Source: a virus
Taxonomy: Duplodnaviria > Caudoviricetes
Strand: one strand, 5' to 3'
Virus record (IMG/VR): IMGVR_UViG_3300027782_000107
Span: 1 to 56,171 of that record
DNA length: 56,171 bases
Every line of letters begins with the position of its first letter. The stretch's first letter is position 1. Of the stretch, positions 1-55,757 are shown piece after piece. A program made the translations under genes and the position numbers. Below the pieces are notes generated by a model, which saw nothing but the letters and a program-made list of their open reading frames with translations, ran no database searches and was not told the DNA's origin.

Positions 1-161
1 TCAACTTTAATAGCATCAGAAGATCCTTCAGGTTTTAATCCTTGCATCTTCTCCATCATCTGCTTCATTGAGCTGACATTTTCTAATGCGACTTTTTGTA
101 CATCTAGTAATGATTTAAAATCACTAGATGATACATGAACTTGAATTGGTGGTTTTGCCAT
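1..161 (-). CDS. Partial CDS running off the window edge; helical protein downstream of the gp51-like ORF, possibly tape measure/hub (gp29-like)
   Basis: ATG at 161-159 with GAGG upstream. Open to position 1, translated by hand: MAKPPIQVHVSSSDFKSLLDVQKVALENVSSMKQMMEKMQ... Not in the ORF track. Function inferred from position only. Confidence 0.55.
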   Translation of the reverse strand, partial: MAKPPIQVHVSSSDFKSLLDVQKVALENVSSMKQMMEKMQGLKPEGSSDAIKV

Positions 162-164
162 CTG

Positions 165-347
165 TTACATCCTCTTTTTGGATTCTATTCTTTTCTTTTC
201 TTCTTCAAGATACTGAATTAGCATAAAGACATACACTTCTCGTTCGAAGGGTATCATGTCTTCCAGCTCAGCCAAAGAGTATTTGTGGTACTGCATCATC
301 GCAAAATTCATTTTATAATAGTTCTCAAGCGATTCATGACTGAGCAA
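165..347 (-). CDS. gp51: Short baseplate hub assembly catalyst (gp51-like); probably the C-terminal extension of a frameshifted gp26-gp51 fusion
   Basis: Motif YYxMNFAMMQYHKYSLAELEDMIPFEREVY is typical of the short gp51 of environmental T4-like phages. The only upstream start is TTG with no SD at normal spacing. Confidence 0.8.
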   Translation of the reverse strand: MLSHESLENYYKMNFAMMQYHKYSLAELEDMIPFEREVYVFMLIQYLEEEKKRIESKKRM

Positions 348-349
348 TA

Positions 350-374
350 CTAAAAAAAACTTTGGAGTCCCTCC
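350..374 (-). promoter_or_regulatory. Putative -1 frameshift signal (internal SD, slippery U8 run, UAG)
   Basis: The minus strand reads CT GGAGG GACTCCAAAG TTTTTTTT AG TATTG. The -1 frame continues directly into the gp51-like ORF. Confidence 0.65.
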
Positions 375-1072
375 AGCATCTTAACATGGTGTCTATTACA
401 CACTGGACAATCGTATTGAATTTCTTTTCTAATCTTTGGCATAGTTTCAAAGAATTTTTGAACTCTTGCGAACTGCTCTGAAGATAGATTTTCAATAAAT
501 GCTAATAGTTCTTCTCTGGTACTTTCTTTAGCATAAAATAATTGTTCACCATCATAAATGTAATCAATAGATAAAGCCATAATATCAAAGACTGTATCTA
601 AGTCATTAACATCAAACCCTTCTAATTTTTTAATAACATCAACTGTAGGATACTTCATCACTACACCGACATTACCAAATAATTCGATCTTGTTGGTATG
701 ATCGTCACCTTTTTGAACTTGAATAGTAGACAAGTCAACAGTAACAGTGGCTTTAGCCTTTTCGTTCTGTTCACCATGATCCAAATCGCAAGCAAAAATT
801 AAATCAACAGTTTCACCAACAGATTTACCACGGATCTGAGTAAACATATACTCTAGATCGAATGTTGCTAGTTTTTCAACATCCAGTTTATCTTGTACGC
901 AAGACTTAACGACTTGCTTTAATGTTTCAATCATTGTTACAACATCTTCAGATTGCTGAGCAATCAAAAGTGCTTTTTCCTCTTTAACGAGGAATGGACG
1001 ATATTTTACTGTCGCTCCACTTGAAGGCACAACCAATGTATAGATTGGCGCATTCATCATAGGTAAAGCCAT
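350..1072 (-). CDS. gp26: Baseplate hub subunit/assembly protein (gp26-like)
   Basis: MALP...YRPFLVKEEKALLIA; FDLEYMFTQIRGKSVGE; C-terminal CPVC...LEGLQSFF; AAGGAG SD upstream. Confidence 0.88.
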   Translation of the reverse strand: MALPMMNAPIYTLVVPSSGATVKYRPFLVKEEKALLIAQQSEDVVTMIETLKQVVKSCVQDKLDVEKLATFDLEYMFTQIRGKSVGETVDLIFACDLDHGEQNEKAKATVTVDLSTIQVQKGDDHTNKIELFGNVGVVMKYPTVDVIKKLEGFDVNDLDTVFDIMALSIDYIYDGEQLFYAKESTREELLAFIENLSSEQFARVQKFFETMPKIRKEIQYDCPVCNRHHVKMLEGLQSFF

Positions 1073-1074
1073 AA

Positions 1075-1488
1075 TTATTCTCCTTTAGACATATTCTTAA
1101 TTAACTTATTCAACTCAGCAGTGCTACCTGTAAAGATAACATTGTTATTCGTCACTTCTTTTCTGGATCCCTCTTTAGGTGTATCTAGTTTTTGTTTCTG
1201 TTGGTGTAGATCTAATAACTGTTGGTTTATATCAGCCAACTGCTTCATTAGATTACCAACAACCTCAAATGCTCTTGGGTGTTCAGACTGCATAGCCACA
1301 TCAAGTGACTTCTGTAGTGCTTCCTGTCCCTGTTGCAATAATATACGAAGATTCCCTCGAGTGACATCGAAGTCATCTTGAATCTTATTTGTAGAGTCGT
1401 TAATAACTTCTCCCGTTTTTGTTATCACTTCAGTCTGCCCGATTGGTTGAATCCCAAATTCAGCAGATAATGTTTCATCAATTTTCAT
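1075..1488 (-). CDS. gp16: Terminase small subunit
   Basis: DFDVTRGNL...SEHPRAFEVVGNLMKQLAD...TNNNVIFTGSTAEL, the characteristic T4-like gp16 motifs. Confidence 0.9.
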   Translation of the reverse strand: MKIDETLSAEFGIQPIGQTEVITKTGEVINDSTNKIQDDFDVTRGNLRILLQQGQEALQKSLDVAMQSEHPRAFEVVGNLMKQLADINQQLLDLHQQKQKLDTPKEGSRKEVTNNNVIFTGSTAELNKLIKNMSKGE

Positions 1489-1502
1489 TATTTATCTCAT
1501 AG

Positions 1503-2258
1503 TTAGAATTTTAATAATCCTGGAAGTTTTGTGACTCCGTAAGATAAAGCAGAACCAGTCAAGAAGTTACCTGCTCTGGTACCAAGTGTATTGTTAAGAG
1601 TTTCTTGGAATCCGCTGAAATTCTGGGTCATTCTTTCCAGTAAATTAGTAGGAACTTTCTGACCATCAGCCAGCGGAGACTTAGGTGTTGCAATCCAATT
1701 TTTGTACTGCATACCAATGCTAATCTTCATAACATCTTTTGCGGCATAGTCCATCTGAATGGAACTAATAGTTTTAGGATAGCACTCAAACAAAGTTACG
1801 TCATAGCGAGTTTTATCATTGATATCTTGAACTTCAATACGCATATCAGCGATATATGTATTGTAATAGTTGTATGTTTTAGTCACTGGGTTTGAAATCA
1901 AATTGGACCAGTCATCAAACAACGATTTAACTTTCATATCTACGTCTACATAAAAAGACATGGTGATGTTGTCATATATCTTCTCATAAGGAACTTCACG
2001 GAACTCACCGAACATTCTATTTTGAGTAGTAGAGTAGTTTGTTCCTGGAATTTGAATTTGGTCACAGAACAATAAAATCTTTTGTAACTGTCCTGGATTG
2101 ATACCAGCTGGTGGAGTGAACATAACTGCATAGCGATTAGTTCTTGCCAGACCCCCAGATTTGATGTGAGAAATAAATTGGTTTATAGGTTTCTGCGCAC
2201 CAGTACCAGTGATTCTATCTGTTACATCTTTTGTGGAAAATGGTAAATTAAGTGCCAT
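1503..2258 (-). CDS. Tail tube-fold baseplate protein (gp54-like tube initiator, gp19 paralogue)
   Basis: GLARTNRYAV...LFCDQIQIPG...LFECYPKTISSIQMDY matches the gp19/gp54 family pattern; the true gp19 is at 55170. Confidence 0.72.
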   Translation of the reverse strand: MALNLPFSTKDVTDRITGTGAQKPINQFISHIKSGGLARTNRYAVMFTPPAGINPGQLQKILLFCDQIQIPGTNYSTTQNRMFGEFREVPYEKIYDNITMSFYVDVDMKVKSLFDDWSNLISNPVTKTYNYYNTYIADMRIEVQDINDKTRYDVTLFECYPKTISSIQMDYAAKDVMKISIGMQYKNWIATPKSPLADGQKVPTNLLERMTQNFSGFQETLNNTLGTRAGNFLTGSALSYGVTKLPGLLKF

Positions 2259-2259
2259 T

Positions 2260-2862
2260 TTATGCCCTTCTAATTATCTTGGTCGAGTCAGACCAGATTT
2301 CTTGTTTACTTGCTCCAACGAATCTTTCAACTGGGAGTAACATAGCTGTTGCCCAATCCGTTGAAGAAACTTGTCTAAATTGTGTTCTAACATGCCCAGT
2401 AAGATACTGTCTCACGCATGGTTGTGCTGCTGCGAATCTAGATACACCATCGATGAGTTGCCATGAGTACTTTAGTCTAGTGGTCTCATCCATCCTGCTA
2501 TTGCTTTTAAAAGCCATCAACTTATCAAGTAAACCGATTCTAAGTGGATACGGTAAATAATGCATATTTAAACCAATGAATCCATCTTCAGTTTTACCAA
2601 ATGGAAATACCAAAGGAAATCTATCGTAGTAAGGCAGTTCTTTCTTCATTTTTGGATCGTATACAAACATGTATAGTTTTCCAGGCATAATTCTAGTGAC
2701 TAATTGATCAGGATTACCATTCAACACTTTCGCTGGGGTGAGTTGTTGCTTAGTCAGCACAGTGACTTGTTGCTCGAACCAACCTTTAGACTTTCTGACT
2801 GCTGTCGTTAAGTCGTATTTATTGCGTTCAAATACATCGACCATTGATTGTGTTTTAGCCAT
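2260..2862 (-). CDS. gp2: DNA end protector protein
   Basis: PGKLYMFVYDPK.K..LPYYDRFPLVFP...GFIGLNMHYLP...W.TA..LPVERF; adjacent to gp4. Confidence 0.9.
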   Translation of the reverse strand: MAKTQSMVDVFERNKYDLTTAVRKSKGWFEQQVTVLTKQQLTPAKVLNGNPDQLVTRIMPGKLYMFVYDPKMKKELPYYDRFPLVFPFGKTEDGFIGLNMHYLPYPLRIGLLDKLMAFKSNSRMDETTRLKYSWQLIDGVSRFAAAQPCVRQYLTGHVRTQFRQVSSTDWATAMLLPVERFVGASKQEIWSDSTKIIRRA

Positions 2863-2866
2863 GTTA

Positions 2867-3298
2867 TTATTTAGGTGATAATCCTAACTCTTTCTCGGTA
2901 ATAATCTTAAATTCCCATCCTCGATCTCGAGCATATTCAATTGCAGCTTCCCACTTGGCTTGGTTTTTCATAAACGTAAGGGATTCTGTAATGTATCTTT
3001 GGGTTTGACGTCCTGGATAAATAGGAGGTTGGGTTTGCGCAGCTGGTTTTACTTCCACGATATAGGTTTTACCTGTGCTAACAGTTATCTTAAAGTCAAC
3101 AAAATAACGATGGATTCGGTTGTCAGTGGGACAACGATAAGGAATAACAGTTTCCTCCGAACTCCACTTCAGAACACTGGGGTTTTTATCGCACCAAGAG
3201 GCAAATCTAGTCTCCCAACTCGATCTCATGATGATGTTAGTTGGATCCCCTGTATACTTCTCAGGGAATATTGGGATAAACTTTCTCTTATGGAACAT
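2867..3298 (-). CDS. gp4: Head completion nuclease
   Basis: PEKYTGDPTNII.RSSWE...WCD.NP.V..WSSEE...HRYFVDF...EVKP...NQAKW; TnsA-like PD-(D/E)xK pattern. Confidence 0.93.
   Translation of the reverse strand: MFHKRKFIPIFPEKYTGDPTNIIMRSSWETRFASWCDKNPSVLKWSSEETVIPYRCPTDNRIHRYFVDFKITVSTGKTYIVEVKPAAQTQPPIYPGRQTQRYITESLTFMKNQAKWEAAIEYARDRGWEFKIITEKELGLSPK
2868..2875 (-). promoter_or_regulatory. T4-type late promoter (CCTAAATA) 5 nt before the gp2 ATG
   Basis: The minus strand reads CCTAAATA-ATAAC-ATG. Confidence 0.6.
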
Positions 3299-3332
3299 AA
3301 ATAACTAATTAGGATAATAACCACTATTTAGG
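3296..3332. promoter_or_regulatory. Face-to-face late promoters for the divergent gp4 and gp48 operons
   Basis: CATAAATA on + (3296-3303) and CCTAAATA on - (3332-3325). Confidence 0.6.
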
Positions 3333-4515: not shown

Positions 4516-5006
4516 TGTACTTCAAAGAATTCCCAAAATTTCAATACGACTTTGCATACGGAAATGATACAAAAGTTTCCGTTGTACAAGATATCACAAG
4601 AAATATTCGTTTCCGTAGAGACGTTCTTGCCAATGTATCACTTTACGATGAGTATGATATTATTGATGGAGAGACTCCAGAAATCATTGCTGAGAAAATT
4701 TACGGTAATCCTGAATACCATTGGGTCATTATGCTTGCCAATGAAAGACACGATTACATTACGGACTTTCCATTACCAGAATATGTATTAGAGAAATACA
4801 TTGTTGATAAGTATGGTGCAACTAGATATGCTATTCATCACTATGAGGACGTAAAGGGTTTTGTAGTTAATTCTGATGCAGCTGGAGCAACGTCTGTTTC
4901 TAATGATGATTACGAAAGAGATTTAAATGAAGCGAAAAGAAGAATCAAAATAATTTCTCCAGATTTGTTATCGATTATTTTAAAACAATATGAAGACTTG
5001 ATGTAA
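4515..5006 (+). CDS. gp53: Baseplate wedge subunit (LysM-like)
   Basis: MYFKEFP...YDIIDGETPE.IA.KIYG...YHWVIML.N...YE...NE.KR.IKI. Confidence 0.92.
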   Translation: MYFKEFPKFQYDFAYGNDTKVSVVQDITRNIRFRRDVLANVSLYDEYDIIDGETPEIIAEKIYGNPEYHWVIMLANERHDYITDFPLPEYVLEKYIVDKYGATRYAIHHYEDVKGFVVNSDAAGATSVSNDDYERDLNEAKRRIKIISPDLLSIILKQYEDLM

Positions 5007-55169: not shown

Positions 55170-55757
55170 ATGGCAAATATTGCTGATTTCAAAGCGCAGA
55201 TGATCGGTGGCGGTGCTCGCCCAAATCAATTCCGTGTTGAATTAACATTCCCATCATATGTTACACTAGGTGTAGTTGCAGGACAAAGAGCGCAGTTTTT
55301 ATGTAAAGCTGCTCAATTACCTGCTTCCACTATCGAGACTCTACCAGTCTTGTATCGTGGTCGCCCAGTTAACTTTGCTGGTGAACGAACATTCCAACCA
55401 TGGACTGTGACAGTTTACAATGATACTACTTTTGGTATCCGTAATGCACTAGAGCAATGGCAATCTGGTATCCAGAATTACAATACAACTAATGGTCGTA
55501 CTAATCCTACTGATTACCAAGTTGACTTGTCTGTTCACCAATTAGATCGCAATGGTGCAATTATTAAGAGTTATAAGTTTGTTGATGCATTCCCAACAAC
55601 AATTTCCGCAATCGGTTTAGATTACGAGCAACAAAATGCAATTGAACAGTTTGATGTAGAGTTCCAATACAACTTCTTCACATCAGCTACTGGTGCAGCT
55701 GCTGGCTTTGGTGTCAATGTTTCTATTGATACTCCAGTTGGTAGTTTCCCACTTTAA
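55170..55757 (+). CDS. gp19: Tail tube protein
   Basis: GGGARPNQFRV; FLCKAAQLPAS; RGR...AGERTF.PWTVTV.ND..F.IR...E.W; V.QLDR.G; FPT.IS.I.L. Confidence 0.97.
   Translation: MANIADFKAQMIGGGARPNQFRVELTFPSYVTLGVVAGQRAQFLCKAAQLPASTIETLPVLYRGRPVNFAGERTFQPWTVTVYNDTTFGIRNALEQWQSGIQNYNTTNGRTNPTDYQVDLSVHQLDRNGAIIKSYKFVDAFPTTISAIGLDYEQQNAIEQFDVEFQYNFFTSATGAAAGFGVNVSIDTPVGSFPL

What the first reader, a model, noticed from the sequence alone, without database searches (positions are those of the whole stretch)
165..380. Candidate -1 frameshift fusing the gp26-like and gp51-like ORFs: a lambda G/GT-style tail chaperone switch in a T4-like phage
Seen: gp26 ends CTG GAG GGA CTC CAA AGT TTT TTT TAG. This contains a U8 run (359-352), i.e. 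a perfect X XXY YYZ heptamer U UUU UUU, directly before UAG. The -1 frame reads TTT TTA GTA TTG CTC AGT CAT GAA (FLVLLSHE...) straight into the gp51-like ORF, giving a fusion of about 302 aa beside the 240 aa product. gp51 has only a TTG start with no SD at initiation distance. GGAGG (374-370) lies exactly 10 nt 5' of the heptamer, written with CTG/GAG/CTC codons that look atypical for this AT-rich genome; TGGAG/CTCCA can also pair. Known: an internal SD about 10 nt upstream stimulates -1 shifting in E. coli dnaX. Lambda G/GT and P2 E/E' use frameshifts just upstream of the tape measure gene. Inferred: these two ORFs are the short and long forms of a tape-measure chaperone, and the next gene (161 leftwards) is the tape measure. 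I am not aware of this being described for T4-like phages. Polymerase slippage on T8 would give the same product.
Basis: partly seen in the sequence, partly recalled or inferred. Interest (0 to 1): 0.88.

Follow-up and report, generated by a model that had tools for sequence, protein, structure and literature searches.

The report
Frameshift joining phage gp26 and gp51
One tail-assembly gene of this uncultured freshwater T4-like phage very probably makes a short and a long protein because some ribosomes slip back one base on a run of T's, a real and strongly conserved feature that was already described for T4-like phages in 2022.

Summary
On the minus strand the gp26-like ORF (350-1072, 240 aa) ends ...CTG GAG GGA CTC CAA AGT TTT TTT TAG. 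The 60-codon gp51-like ORF lies in the -1 frame, and GGAGG lies 10 nt upstream of the T_TTT_TTT heptamer.

The -1 offset holds in 79 of 80 related viral contigs and in the 6 GenBank phages scored with them. A T_TTT_TTN heptamer stands there in all 80 contigs and in 7 distant T4-like lineages. Homology of the -1 peptide starts at the heptamer, upstream of any usable start codon.

T4 gp51 aligns colinearly with the conceptual 302-aa fusion. T4 gp26 ends at the junction. A 100%-complete relative has only one gene of this family. In a 97%-identical relative the next gene is a 651-aa tape-measure-like protein.

Synonymous sites are frozen over G-GAG-G and AGT-TTT-TTY. No conserved downstream RNA structure was found. 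Contigs from four sequencing runs keep T8.

Vladimirov, Gautam and Davidson (Virology 2022) identified gp26/gp51 as the tail assembly chaperones of T4-like phages. I saw only the title and two citing passages. This scan has also noted the same thing 606 times on other DNA. It is a new member of a known kind, and interest is low.

The parts
350..1072 (-). gp26-like ORF, the short form of the tail/baseplate-hub assembly chaperone (TAC-N), 240 aa, stop TAG at 352-350
   Evidence: ORF. PF12322 T4_baseplate, 5.5e-60, 203 bits against a cut-off of 24.5; phrog_150, 1.9e-66. AlphaFold2 model, mean pLDDT 95.3.
353..359 (-). Slippery heptamer T_TTT_TTT (X_XXY_YYZ). Together with the T of the stop codon it forms the T8 run 352-359.
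   Evidence: T_TTT_TTY is present in 80 of 80 related contigs. In 59 unique genes the first Phe codon is TTT in 59 of 59 and the second is TTT in 53 and TTC in 6.
350..352 (-). UAG stop directly 3' of the heptamer (a possible 'shifty stop')
   Evidence: TAG, TAA or TGA directly follows the heptamer in the window and in all 80 related contigs.
369..374 (-). Shine-Dalgarno-like GGAGGG inside the ORF; GGAGG (374-370) ends 10 nt before the heptamer
   Evidence: the Leu codon is NTG in 57 of 59 unique genes and the Glu codon is GAG in 57 of 59, while the third base of the Gly codon varies freely. Window-wide use is GAG 22% and CTG+TTG 18%.
165..359 (-). -1 frame extension read from the heptamer (FFLVLLSHESLENYYK...KKRM, stop TAA 167-165), the gp51-like C-terminal domain
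   Evidence: phrog_634 'baseplate hub assembly catalyst' 3e-25, and phrog_150 positions 237-276 of 282; aligns to T4 gp51 residues 200-245, E 2e-5; 31 invariant columns in 22 relatives, including F1, F2, L3 and L6.
165..1072 (-). Conceptual transframe product (TAC-NC), 302 aa, the equivalent of T4 gp51
   Evidence: colinear MAFFT alignment of 9 conceptual fusions with T4 gp51; T4 gp26 ends at the junction.
3..161 (-). First 53 codons of the next gene, cut by the end of the record; probable tail tape measure protein. AGAGGA lies upstream of its ATG at 161.
   Evidence: In relative L012 (97% identical gp26) the same gene is 651 aa and matches phrog_4372 'tail length tape measure protein' at 4.1e-15.
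1503..2258 (-). Tube-family protein upstream; its positional counterparts in named phages are annotated gp54 baseplate tail tube initiator
   Evidence: phrog_45, 2e-37. PF23849; annotations of the gene at this position in relatives.

Best explanation
The gp26-like ORF and the small gp51-like ORF are one recoded gene for the assembly chaperone of the tail tape measure and baseplate hub.

Most ribosomes terminate at UAG (352-350) and give the 240-aa short form, the counterpart of T4 gp26. A minority slip back one base on U_UUU_UUU (359-353). They then read UUA GUA UUG... and add 62 residues, giving a 302-aa long form, the counterpart of T4 gp51.

The slip is probably helped by pairing of the internal GGAGG, 10 nt upstream, with the anti-Shine-Dalgarno end of 16S rRNA, as in E. 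coli dnaX. It is probably also helped by slow decoding of the stop codon that directly follows the run. By analogy with lambda G/GT, the shared N-domain would coat the tape measure protein encoded by the next gene, and the rarer C-domain would link that complex to another tail or hub component.

Shown here: the sequence anatomy, its conservation, the synonymous-site constraint and the homology to T4 gp26 and gp51. Inferred: that the shift occurs, its rate, the role of GGAGG and of the stop, and every binding partner.
For: - Frame offset: the -1 offset is seen in the window, in 79 of 80 IMG/VR relatives (59-97% identical gp26) and in 6 of 6 GenBank phages scored in that call.
- Heptamer in distant lineages: TTTTTTC stands in Stenotrophomonas DLP_6, Delftia PhiW-14, Aeromonas Aeh1, Vibrio phi-ST2, Pelagibacter Mosig and cyanophage S-RIM44. 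Rhizobium RHph_I1_9 has TTTTTTG, where the protein reads F-L, so the bases are kept although the residue changed.
- Protein ends: of the best 150 of 4242 cluster representatives, 137 have FF in the last 12 residues and 132 of these have at most 2 residues after it. A further 10 have F-L at that place.
- Homology starts at the heptamer. In Mosig the zero frame runs 8 codons further, yet the conserved peptide is in the -1 frame from the heptamer.
- No initiation signal: in 52 unique junctions the first ATG/GTG/TTG of the -1 ORF lies at codon -16, 4, 5, 11, 17 or 22. None of the 52 has an SD-like 4-mer upstream of it. The extension is always 63-66 codons.
- T4 comparison: gp51 residues 1-201 match PF12322 (3.9e-52), as gp26 does (8.8e-64). 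gp51 covers phrog_150 positions 13-280 and gp26 covers 14-235. The gp51 tail aligns to the window's -1 peptide and the whole protein aligns to the fusions. T4 gp26, which needs no shift, codes its FF as TTC TTT.
- Copy number: only one PF12322 gene is found in a 100%-complete 163.6-kb relative.
- Synonymous constraint over the GGAGG and the heptamer.
- The downstream gene is tape-measure-like.
- T8 is kept, without indel, in contigs of 2 DNA and 2 RNA-library runs.
Against: - No protein or reporter data were available. The transframe product is not shown for this phage, nor, in anything I could read, for any T4-like phage.
- GGAGG overlaps a conserved [E/R/K]-G dipeptide, so part of its conservation is protein-level. 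It is weak or absent in Rhizobium RHph_I1_9 (GTAGGT), and two close relatives have GAAGG.
- No conserved downstream hairpin or pseudoknot was found. The consensus energy is -1.77 kcal/mol and the window's own fold has z = -0.08.
- Ackermannviridae relatives keep the C-domain in the -1 frame but lack a canonical heptamer.
- One of the 80 relatives, L022, has an 82-nt deletion that puts the rest of the C-domain in the +1 frame.
- The fold match to a solved tail assembly chaperone is weak: HK97 2ob9, probability 0.72-0.75, E 0.6-1.0.
Confidence: 0.82

Rival explanations
1. The long form is made by transcriptional slippage. RNA polymerase adds one extra U on the T8 run, so a subset of mRNAs carries the two ORFs in one frame and the ribosome does not shift.
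For: The run is T8 in the window and in 53 of 59 unique genes of this clade. It is the only such run in the window. An inserted U gives the same 302-aa protein. That runs of about 8-9 A or T support polymerase slippage in bacteria is recalled knowledge, not from a call.
Against: Six of the 59 unique genes in this clade, and all the distant lineages examined except the Ackermannviridae, have only T6 followed by C or G. Six T's are short for polymerase slippage (recalled) but form a classical ribosomal heptamer. The frozen in-frame register (X_XXY_YYZ) and the SD-like element 10 nt upstream make sense only for the ribosome. RNA-library contigs show U8, but contigs cannot show a minority form.
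Confidence: 0.1
2. There is no recoding. The small ORF is translated on its own, from TTG at 347 or by termination-reinitiation after the gp26 stop, as a free 60-aa gp51-like protein. This is how most database records annotate it.
For: Records annotate a separate 'baseplate hub assembly catalyst'. Some lineages have an ATG close to the stop, for example TAATG in Vibrio phi-ST2.
Against: There is no conserved start codon, and 0 of 52 junctions have an SD-like 4-mer before the first start. Invariant residues F1, F2, L3 and L6 lie upstream of every candidate start. The conserved peptide overlaps the end of gp26 in Mosig. In T4 the homologous segment is covalently continuous with a gp26-like domain. 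This reading does not explain the frozen T-run or the constant -1 offset.
Confidence: 0.06
3. It is an artefact or decay: a homopolymer miscall (true T9, a single 302-aa gene) or a recently broken gene.
For: Homopolymers are error-prone in sequencing. One relative (L022) is disrupted.
Against: T8 or T6C with the same -1 offset recurs in 79 of 80 independent contigs at 59-97% protein identity and in contigs of four runs from four studies. None of the best 150 family representatives is about 300 aa; they range from 212 to 277 aa.
Confidence: 0.01

Closest known systems
Phage T4 gp26 (208 aa) and gp51 (249 aa). They are listed as hub assembly chaperones in Leiman et al. 2010 (PMC3004832, passages read). 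[quoted passage not shown] That paper is not held; I saw its title and two citing passages.
   Same: Same protein family (PF12322) and the same two products: a short form ending ...G-L-x-x-F-F, and a long form with a roughly 45-60 residue C-domain. The citing passages say that some T4-like phages carry a short gene plus a fused long gene instead of frameshifting, and that poly-T slippery sequences are known -1 signals in TAC-N genes of T4-like phages.
   Different: T4 encodes the two forms as separate, divergently transcribed genes and has lost the T-run, coding FF as TTC TTT. Here there is a single gene and the long form needs recoding. I could not check whether the 2022 paper treats the upstream GGAGG, the adjacent stop or this freshwater clade.
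Lambda G/GT, P2 E/E+E' and the conserved -1 frameshift of tail assembly chaperone genes in long-tailed phages (Levin et al. 1993; Xu, Hendrix and Duda 2004). Both are recalled; the 2004 reference was seen only in reference lists.
   Same: Two overlapping ORFs directly upstream of the tape measure gene, a -1 offset, an X_XXY_YYZ heptamer near the end of the first ORF, and a short product plus a C-terminally extended one.
   Different: No sequence similarity was detected. The N-domain is about twice as long (240 aa), with a Cys-x2-Cys pair near its end. The fold match to a solved chaperone (HK97, 2ob9) is only weak. The genes lie in a baseplate-hub context, not directly after the major tube gene.
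E. coli dnaX -1 frameshift (A_AAA_AAG with an upstream Shine-Dalgarno-like stimulator and a downstream hairpin; Larsen et al. 1994). Recalled, from no call.
   Same: An internal SD-like element about 10 nt 5' of the heptamer, kept at synonymous sites.
   Different: No conserved downstream hairpin. The heptamer is U-rich. A stop codon directly follows the site. The shifted product is the longer one, whereas in dnaX the shift gives the shorter one.

Membership tests
T4 gp26/gp51 family (Pfam PF12322 T4_baseplate; phrog_150) | The N-domain matches the family profile above the curated cut-off | tested here: met
   203.2 bits against a cut-off of 24.5, covering profile positions 2-218 of 219; phrog_150, 1.9e-66.
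T4 gp26/gp51 family (Pfam PF12322 T4_baseplate; phrog_150) | A gp51-type C-terminal domain is present and lies in the same order as in T4 gp51 | tested here: met
   phrog_634, 3e-25; aligns to T4 gp51 residues 200-245, E 2e-5; colinear alignment across the junction.
Tail assembly chaperone with programmed -1 frameshift (lambda G/GT type) | Two ORFs, the second in the -1 frame and overlapping or abutting the end of the first; the offset is conserved among relatives | tested here: met
   window, 79 of 80 contigs and 6 of 6 GenBank phages; all 9 loci printed there, including the 2 Ackermannviridae.
Tail assembly chaperone with programmed -1 frameshift (lambda G/GT type) | A conserved X_XXY_YYZ slippery heptamer in the zero frame | tested here: met
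   T_TTT_TTN everywhere examined except the 2 Ackermannviridae records.
Tail assembly chaperone with programmed -1 frameshift (lambda G/GT type) | Lies immediately upstream of the tape measure gene | tested here: met
   The window holds only 53 codons of the next gene. In L012 the same gene is 651 aa and matches phrog_4372 tape measure at 4.1e-15. This rests on the relative.
Tail assembly chaperone with programmed -1 frameshift (lambda G/GT type) | Both products are made, the long one as a small fixed fraction | not testable with these tools
   Needs a reporter assay or proteomics. The runs available here are kept only as contigs.
Tail assembly chaperone with programmed -1 frameshift (lambda G/GT type) | The N-domain has the fold of solved tail assembly chaperones | tested here: inconclusive
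   no PDB match at E <= 0.001. The only two hits with probability above 0.1 are chains A and B of HK97 tail assembly chaperone 2ob9 (probability 0.72-0.75, TM-score on the target 0.43-0.52, 86-92 aligned columns); no match by sequence.
dnaX-type stimulated -1 frameshift | An SD-like element about 10 nt upstream of the heptamer | tested here: met
   This is met at the sequence level only; its function was not tested.
dnaX-type stimulated -1 frameshift | A stable downstream stem-loop | tested here: not met
   consensus energy -1.77 kcal/mol over 23 sequences; z = -0.08.

The most novel reading that the evidence does not exclude
The shift in this freshwater clade is driven by a minimal two-part stimulator, with no downstream RNA structure. 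One part is a dnaX-like contact between the internal GGAGG, 10 nt upstream, and 16S rRNA. The other is a stop codon placed directly after the heptamer. Both are held at synonymous sites. The merging of heptamer and stop into a T8 run adds RNA-polymerase slippage as a second route to the same long form. I could not read the 2022 paper, so I cannot say whether any of this is already in print.
Probability: 0.35. Interest if true: 0.4.

Novelty: new member of a known kind. Interest (0 to 1): 0.2.

Why it matters
The feature explains how a single gene supplies both forms of the chaperone that T4 encodes as genes 26 and 51. It also shows that the many database records naming a free 60-aa 'baseplate hub assembly catalyst' are probably mis-annotated; the ORF should be joined to gp26 by a -1 shift. 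The idea itself is published, so the value here is corrective and confirmatory. The report adds a freshwater clade, a quantified synonymous-site constraint on the slip site and on an upstream SD-like element, and evidence against independent initiation.

Tried and rejected
- Near-identity DNA search of the phage collection with 1-3300 found nothing.
- Complex prediction of the -1 extension (alignment A3) with the window's gp19-like tube protein (55170-55757, alignment A2) returned 'no answer', score 0.00. It says nothing either way about binding.
- Sequence searches of PDB chains with the protein and with a 145-sequence profile gave only chance-level hits.
- Pfam has no family for the 64-residue extension, even at E <= 10.
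- A downstream stimulatory structure was sought by RNAalifold on 23 junctions and by single-sequence folding. None was found.
- The Vladimirov 2022 paper could not be read. Five of its citing papers were opened and carried no informative passage.
- Literature searches for 'gp26, gp51, frameshift' and 'gp51, tail assembly chaperone, gp26' found no open paper on T4-like phages.
- Sequencing runs are served as contigs only, so minority U9 transcripts could not be sought.
- Depth in the RNA-library runs is not evidence of expression.

Full report
**What is in the sequence.**
On the minus strand the 240-aa ORF 350..1072 ends CTG GAG GGA CTC CAA AGT TTT TTT TAG. The T8 run is 359-352 and the stop is 352-350. 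GGAGG is 374-370, and 10 nt (369-360) separate it from the heptamer T_TTT_TTT (359-353).

A 60-codon ORF (165..347, TTG start) lies in the -1 frame. Read from the heptamer it gives FFLVLLSHESLENYYK... and a conceptual fusion of 240 + 62 = 302 aa. The next gene starts at ATG 161 behind AGAGGA and runs off the record. The window is the whole record, a fragment estimated 35% complete.

The site is unusual within the window:
- It is the only T>=8 or A>=8 run.
- It is the only in-frame T_TTT_TTN among 27 Phe-Phe dipeptides of the 31 longest ORFs.
- CTG, GAG and CTC are minority codons (5%, 22% and 3% of their amino acid).

**What the two ORFs are.**
The long ORF matches PF12322 T4_baseplate (5.5e-60) and phrog_150 'baseplate hub'. 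The small ORF matches phrog_634 'baseplate hub assembly catalyst' (gp51) at 3e-25. It also matches positions 237-276 of the 282-position phrog_150 profile, so some members of the gp26 family carry this segment fused.

In T4, genes 26 and 51 are separate and divergent.
- T4 gp51 residues 1-201 match the same Pfam family as gp26 (3.9e-52 and 8.8e-64).
- gp51 covers phrog_150 positions 13-280, while gp26 covers 14-235.
- gp51 residues 200-245 align to the window's -1 peptide (31% identity, E 2e-5).

A MAFFT alignment of nine conceptual fusions with T4 gp51 is colinear through the junction. T4 gp26 stops there, with ...RGLKEFFELL. T4 gp26 is therefore the short form and gp51 the long form of one protein. 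The window encodes both in one recoded gene.

**Conservation.**
tblastn found the gp26-like protein in 974 phage records, the nearest being cyanomyoviruses at 40-45% identity. The small peptide was found in 565 records.

In 80 IMG/VR contigs with 59-97% identical gp26, 79 have the gp51-like peptide in the -1 frame. All 80 have T_TTT_TTT or T_TTT_TTC followed directly by a stop. The exception, L022, has an 82-nt deletion just after the run.

Six GenBank phages scored in the same call all show the -1 offset: four cyanophages, Pelagibacter phage Mosig and Vibrio phi-ST2.

Distant lineages keep the heptamer as well. It reads TTTTTTC in Stenotrophomonas DLP_6, Delftia PhiW-14 and Aeromonas Aeh1. 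It reads TTTTTTG in Rhizobium RHph_I1_9, where the protein reads F-L instead of F-F.

A scan of all 1.84 billion representatives found 4242 relatives at E <= 0.001. Among the best 150:
- 137 have FF in the last 12 residues, and 132 of these have at most two residues after it.
- 10 have F-L at that place, 1 has L-F and 2 end otherwise.
- None is about 300 aa; the range is 212-277 aa.

Two Ackermannviridae records keep the C-domain in the -1 frame but have no canonical heptamer.

**Against separate initiation.**
In 52 unique junctions, taken from the 75 loci with enough flanking sequence, the first ATG/GTG/TTG of the -1 ORF lies at codon -16, 4, 5, 11, 17 or 22. None of the 52 has an SD-like 4-mer 5-16 nt upstream of it. 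The extension is always 63-66 codons.

Residues F1, F2, L3 and L6 of the shifted frame are invariant in 22 relatives, and they lie upstream of those candidate starts. In Mosig the zero frame runs on for 8 codons, yet the conserved peptide is the -1 reading from the heptamer.

A 100%-complete 163.6-kb relative has a single PF12322 gene. There is therefore no separate long-form gene of the T4 kind.

**Selection at the nucleotide level.**
This was measured in 59 unique genes of the clade.
- The Leu codon before GAG is CTG or TTG in 57. The first base varies but the third does not.
- Glu is GAG in 57, whereas other conserved Glu columns use mostly GAA and the window uses GAG 22% of the time.
- The third base of the Gly codon varies freely.
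- Ser is AGT in 56 of 56, against 18% of Ser codons window-wide.
- The first Phe is TTT in 59 of 59. The second is TTT in 53 and TTC in 6.

So the GGAGG core and the heptamer are held beyond what the protein needs. These sequences are related, so the counts are not independent events. T4, which needs no shift, codes its FF as TTC TTT.

In distant lineages an SD-like core stands at a similar distance in most cases (GAGGA in Aeh1, GAGG in phi-ST2, AAGGGAG in Mosig). It is absent in the Rhizobium phage. It overlaps a conserved [E/R/K]-G dipeptide, which explains part of its conservation.

The phage's own genes use SD-like motifs: 21 of 36 long ORFs have one on a crude count. Internal GGAGG is rare, 15 in 52.8 kb.

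**Other stimulators.**
No conserved downstream structure was found. The RNAalifold consensus energy is -1.77 kcal/mol over 23 junctions, and the window's own fold is no better than shuffles (z = -0.08). In this clade the stop codon directly follows the heptamer in all 81 sequences. That it acts as a 'shifty stop' is inference from general knowledge of recoding.

**Context.**
The gene order on the minus strand is:
1. a head-completion (gp4-like) gene
2. a DNA end protector (gp2-like) gene
3. a tube-family gene of the gp54 kind
4. a 137-aa small-terminase-like gene
5. the gp26-like ORF
6. the gp51-like ORF
7. the next, cut gene

In L012 that next gene is 651 aa, with a Gly/Ala-rich hydrophobic middle. 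It matches phrog_4372 'tail length tape measure protein' at 4.1e-15. The genes at this position in cyanophage S-RIM44 and Vibrio phi-ST2 also give tape-measure hits, while the one in Mosig gives none.

**Fold.**
An AlphaFold2 model of the 240-aa form, built on 145 sequences, has mean pLDDT 95.3. Against the PDB nothing reaches E <= 0.001. The only hits with probability above 0.1 are the two chains of the HK97 tail assembly chaperone 2ob9 (probability 0.72-0.75). This is a hint, not a demonstration. Against predicted viral structures, 75 matches at E <= 0.001 are gp26-family proteins of many myophages.

**Is T8 real?**
Contigs of two DNA runs and two RNA-library runs, from four studies of fresh water, span 352-359 without any indel. 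One of the DNA runs may be the source sample. Contigs cannot show a minority U9, so ribosomal and transcriptional slippage cannot be told apart here.

I favour the ribosome for two reasons. Most lineages have only six T's, and the frozen register and the upstream SD-like element make sense only for translation. Polymerase slippage may contribute on T8.

**What is known.**
Leiman et al. 2010 list gp26 and gp51 as hub assembly chaperones (passages read).

[quoted passage not shown] I saw its title and two informative citing passages.
- One says some T4-like phages carry a short gene plus a fused long gene instead of frameshifting (PMC10885494).
- The other says poly-T slippery sequences are known -1 signals in TAC-N genes of T4-like phages (PMC12846349).

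The core idea is therefore in print. My searches found no open paper with experimental proof of the shift in a T4-like phage. This scan's own notes hold 606 earlier findings of the same thing in at least 533 genomes. Some of those state that no publication exists, which I contradict.

**Verdict.**
It is a new member of a known kind. Interest is low, at 0.2. The only possibly new elements are the constrained upstream SD-like motif and the adjacent stop, which would act as stimulators without a downstream structure.

Noticed in passing
window 1075-1488 (-): A 137-aa ORF matching terminase small subunit families (phrog_445 6.9e-36; PF11053 7.2e-10) sits between the gp54-like tube gene and the gp26-like gene. 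The same ORF is present in relative L012. This is an odd place for a packaging gene.
   Followed up: no
L022 about 4713-4830: One of 80 related contigs has an 82-nt deletion starting right after the T8 run. It removes the first half of the gp51-like domain and puts the rest in the +1 frame. The downstream gene also begins differently (MAKRRSRN...). It may be a defective variant or a chimeric assembly.
   Followed up: partly
L008 (phage T4) 3803-3870 (-): T4 gene 26 keeps the C-terminal G-L-x-x-F-F motif but codes FF as TTC TTT, so it has no slippery run. This is consistent with loss of the slip site once the long form became a separate gene.
   Followed up: partly
L093 about 3290-3330; L094 about 3225-3270: Ackermannviridae (Klebsiella UPM 2146, Salmonella ST2) end gp26 with ...E-I-F-I* (ATT TTC ATT TAA). 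They keep a gp51-like domain in the -1 frame that is unannotated or annotated as a short hypothetical ORF. They have no canonical X_XXY_YYZ heptamer, so the recoding site, if any, is non-canonical.
   Followed up: partly
L091 (Aeromonas phage Aeh1) 3205-3385: Aeh1 has the TTTTTTC site and a 60-codon -1 extension, but no gp51 is annotated in the record; the stretch is shown as intergenic.
   Followed up: no
proteins P0001-P0150: Ten of the 150 family representatives end in F-L-x instead of F-F-x. The one case seen at DNA level, the Rhizobium phage with TTT TTG, fits conservation of the T6 run rather than of the residue. The DNA of these ten was not available.
   Followed up: partly
window 2867-3298 (-): The gp4-like head completion protein (phrog_218, 3.2e-56) also matches the TnsA-like endonuclease N-terminal domain PF08722 (5.5e-22).
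   Followed up: no
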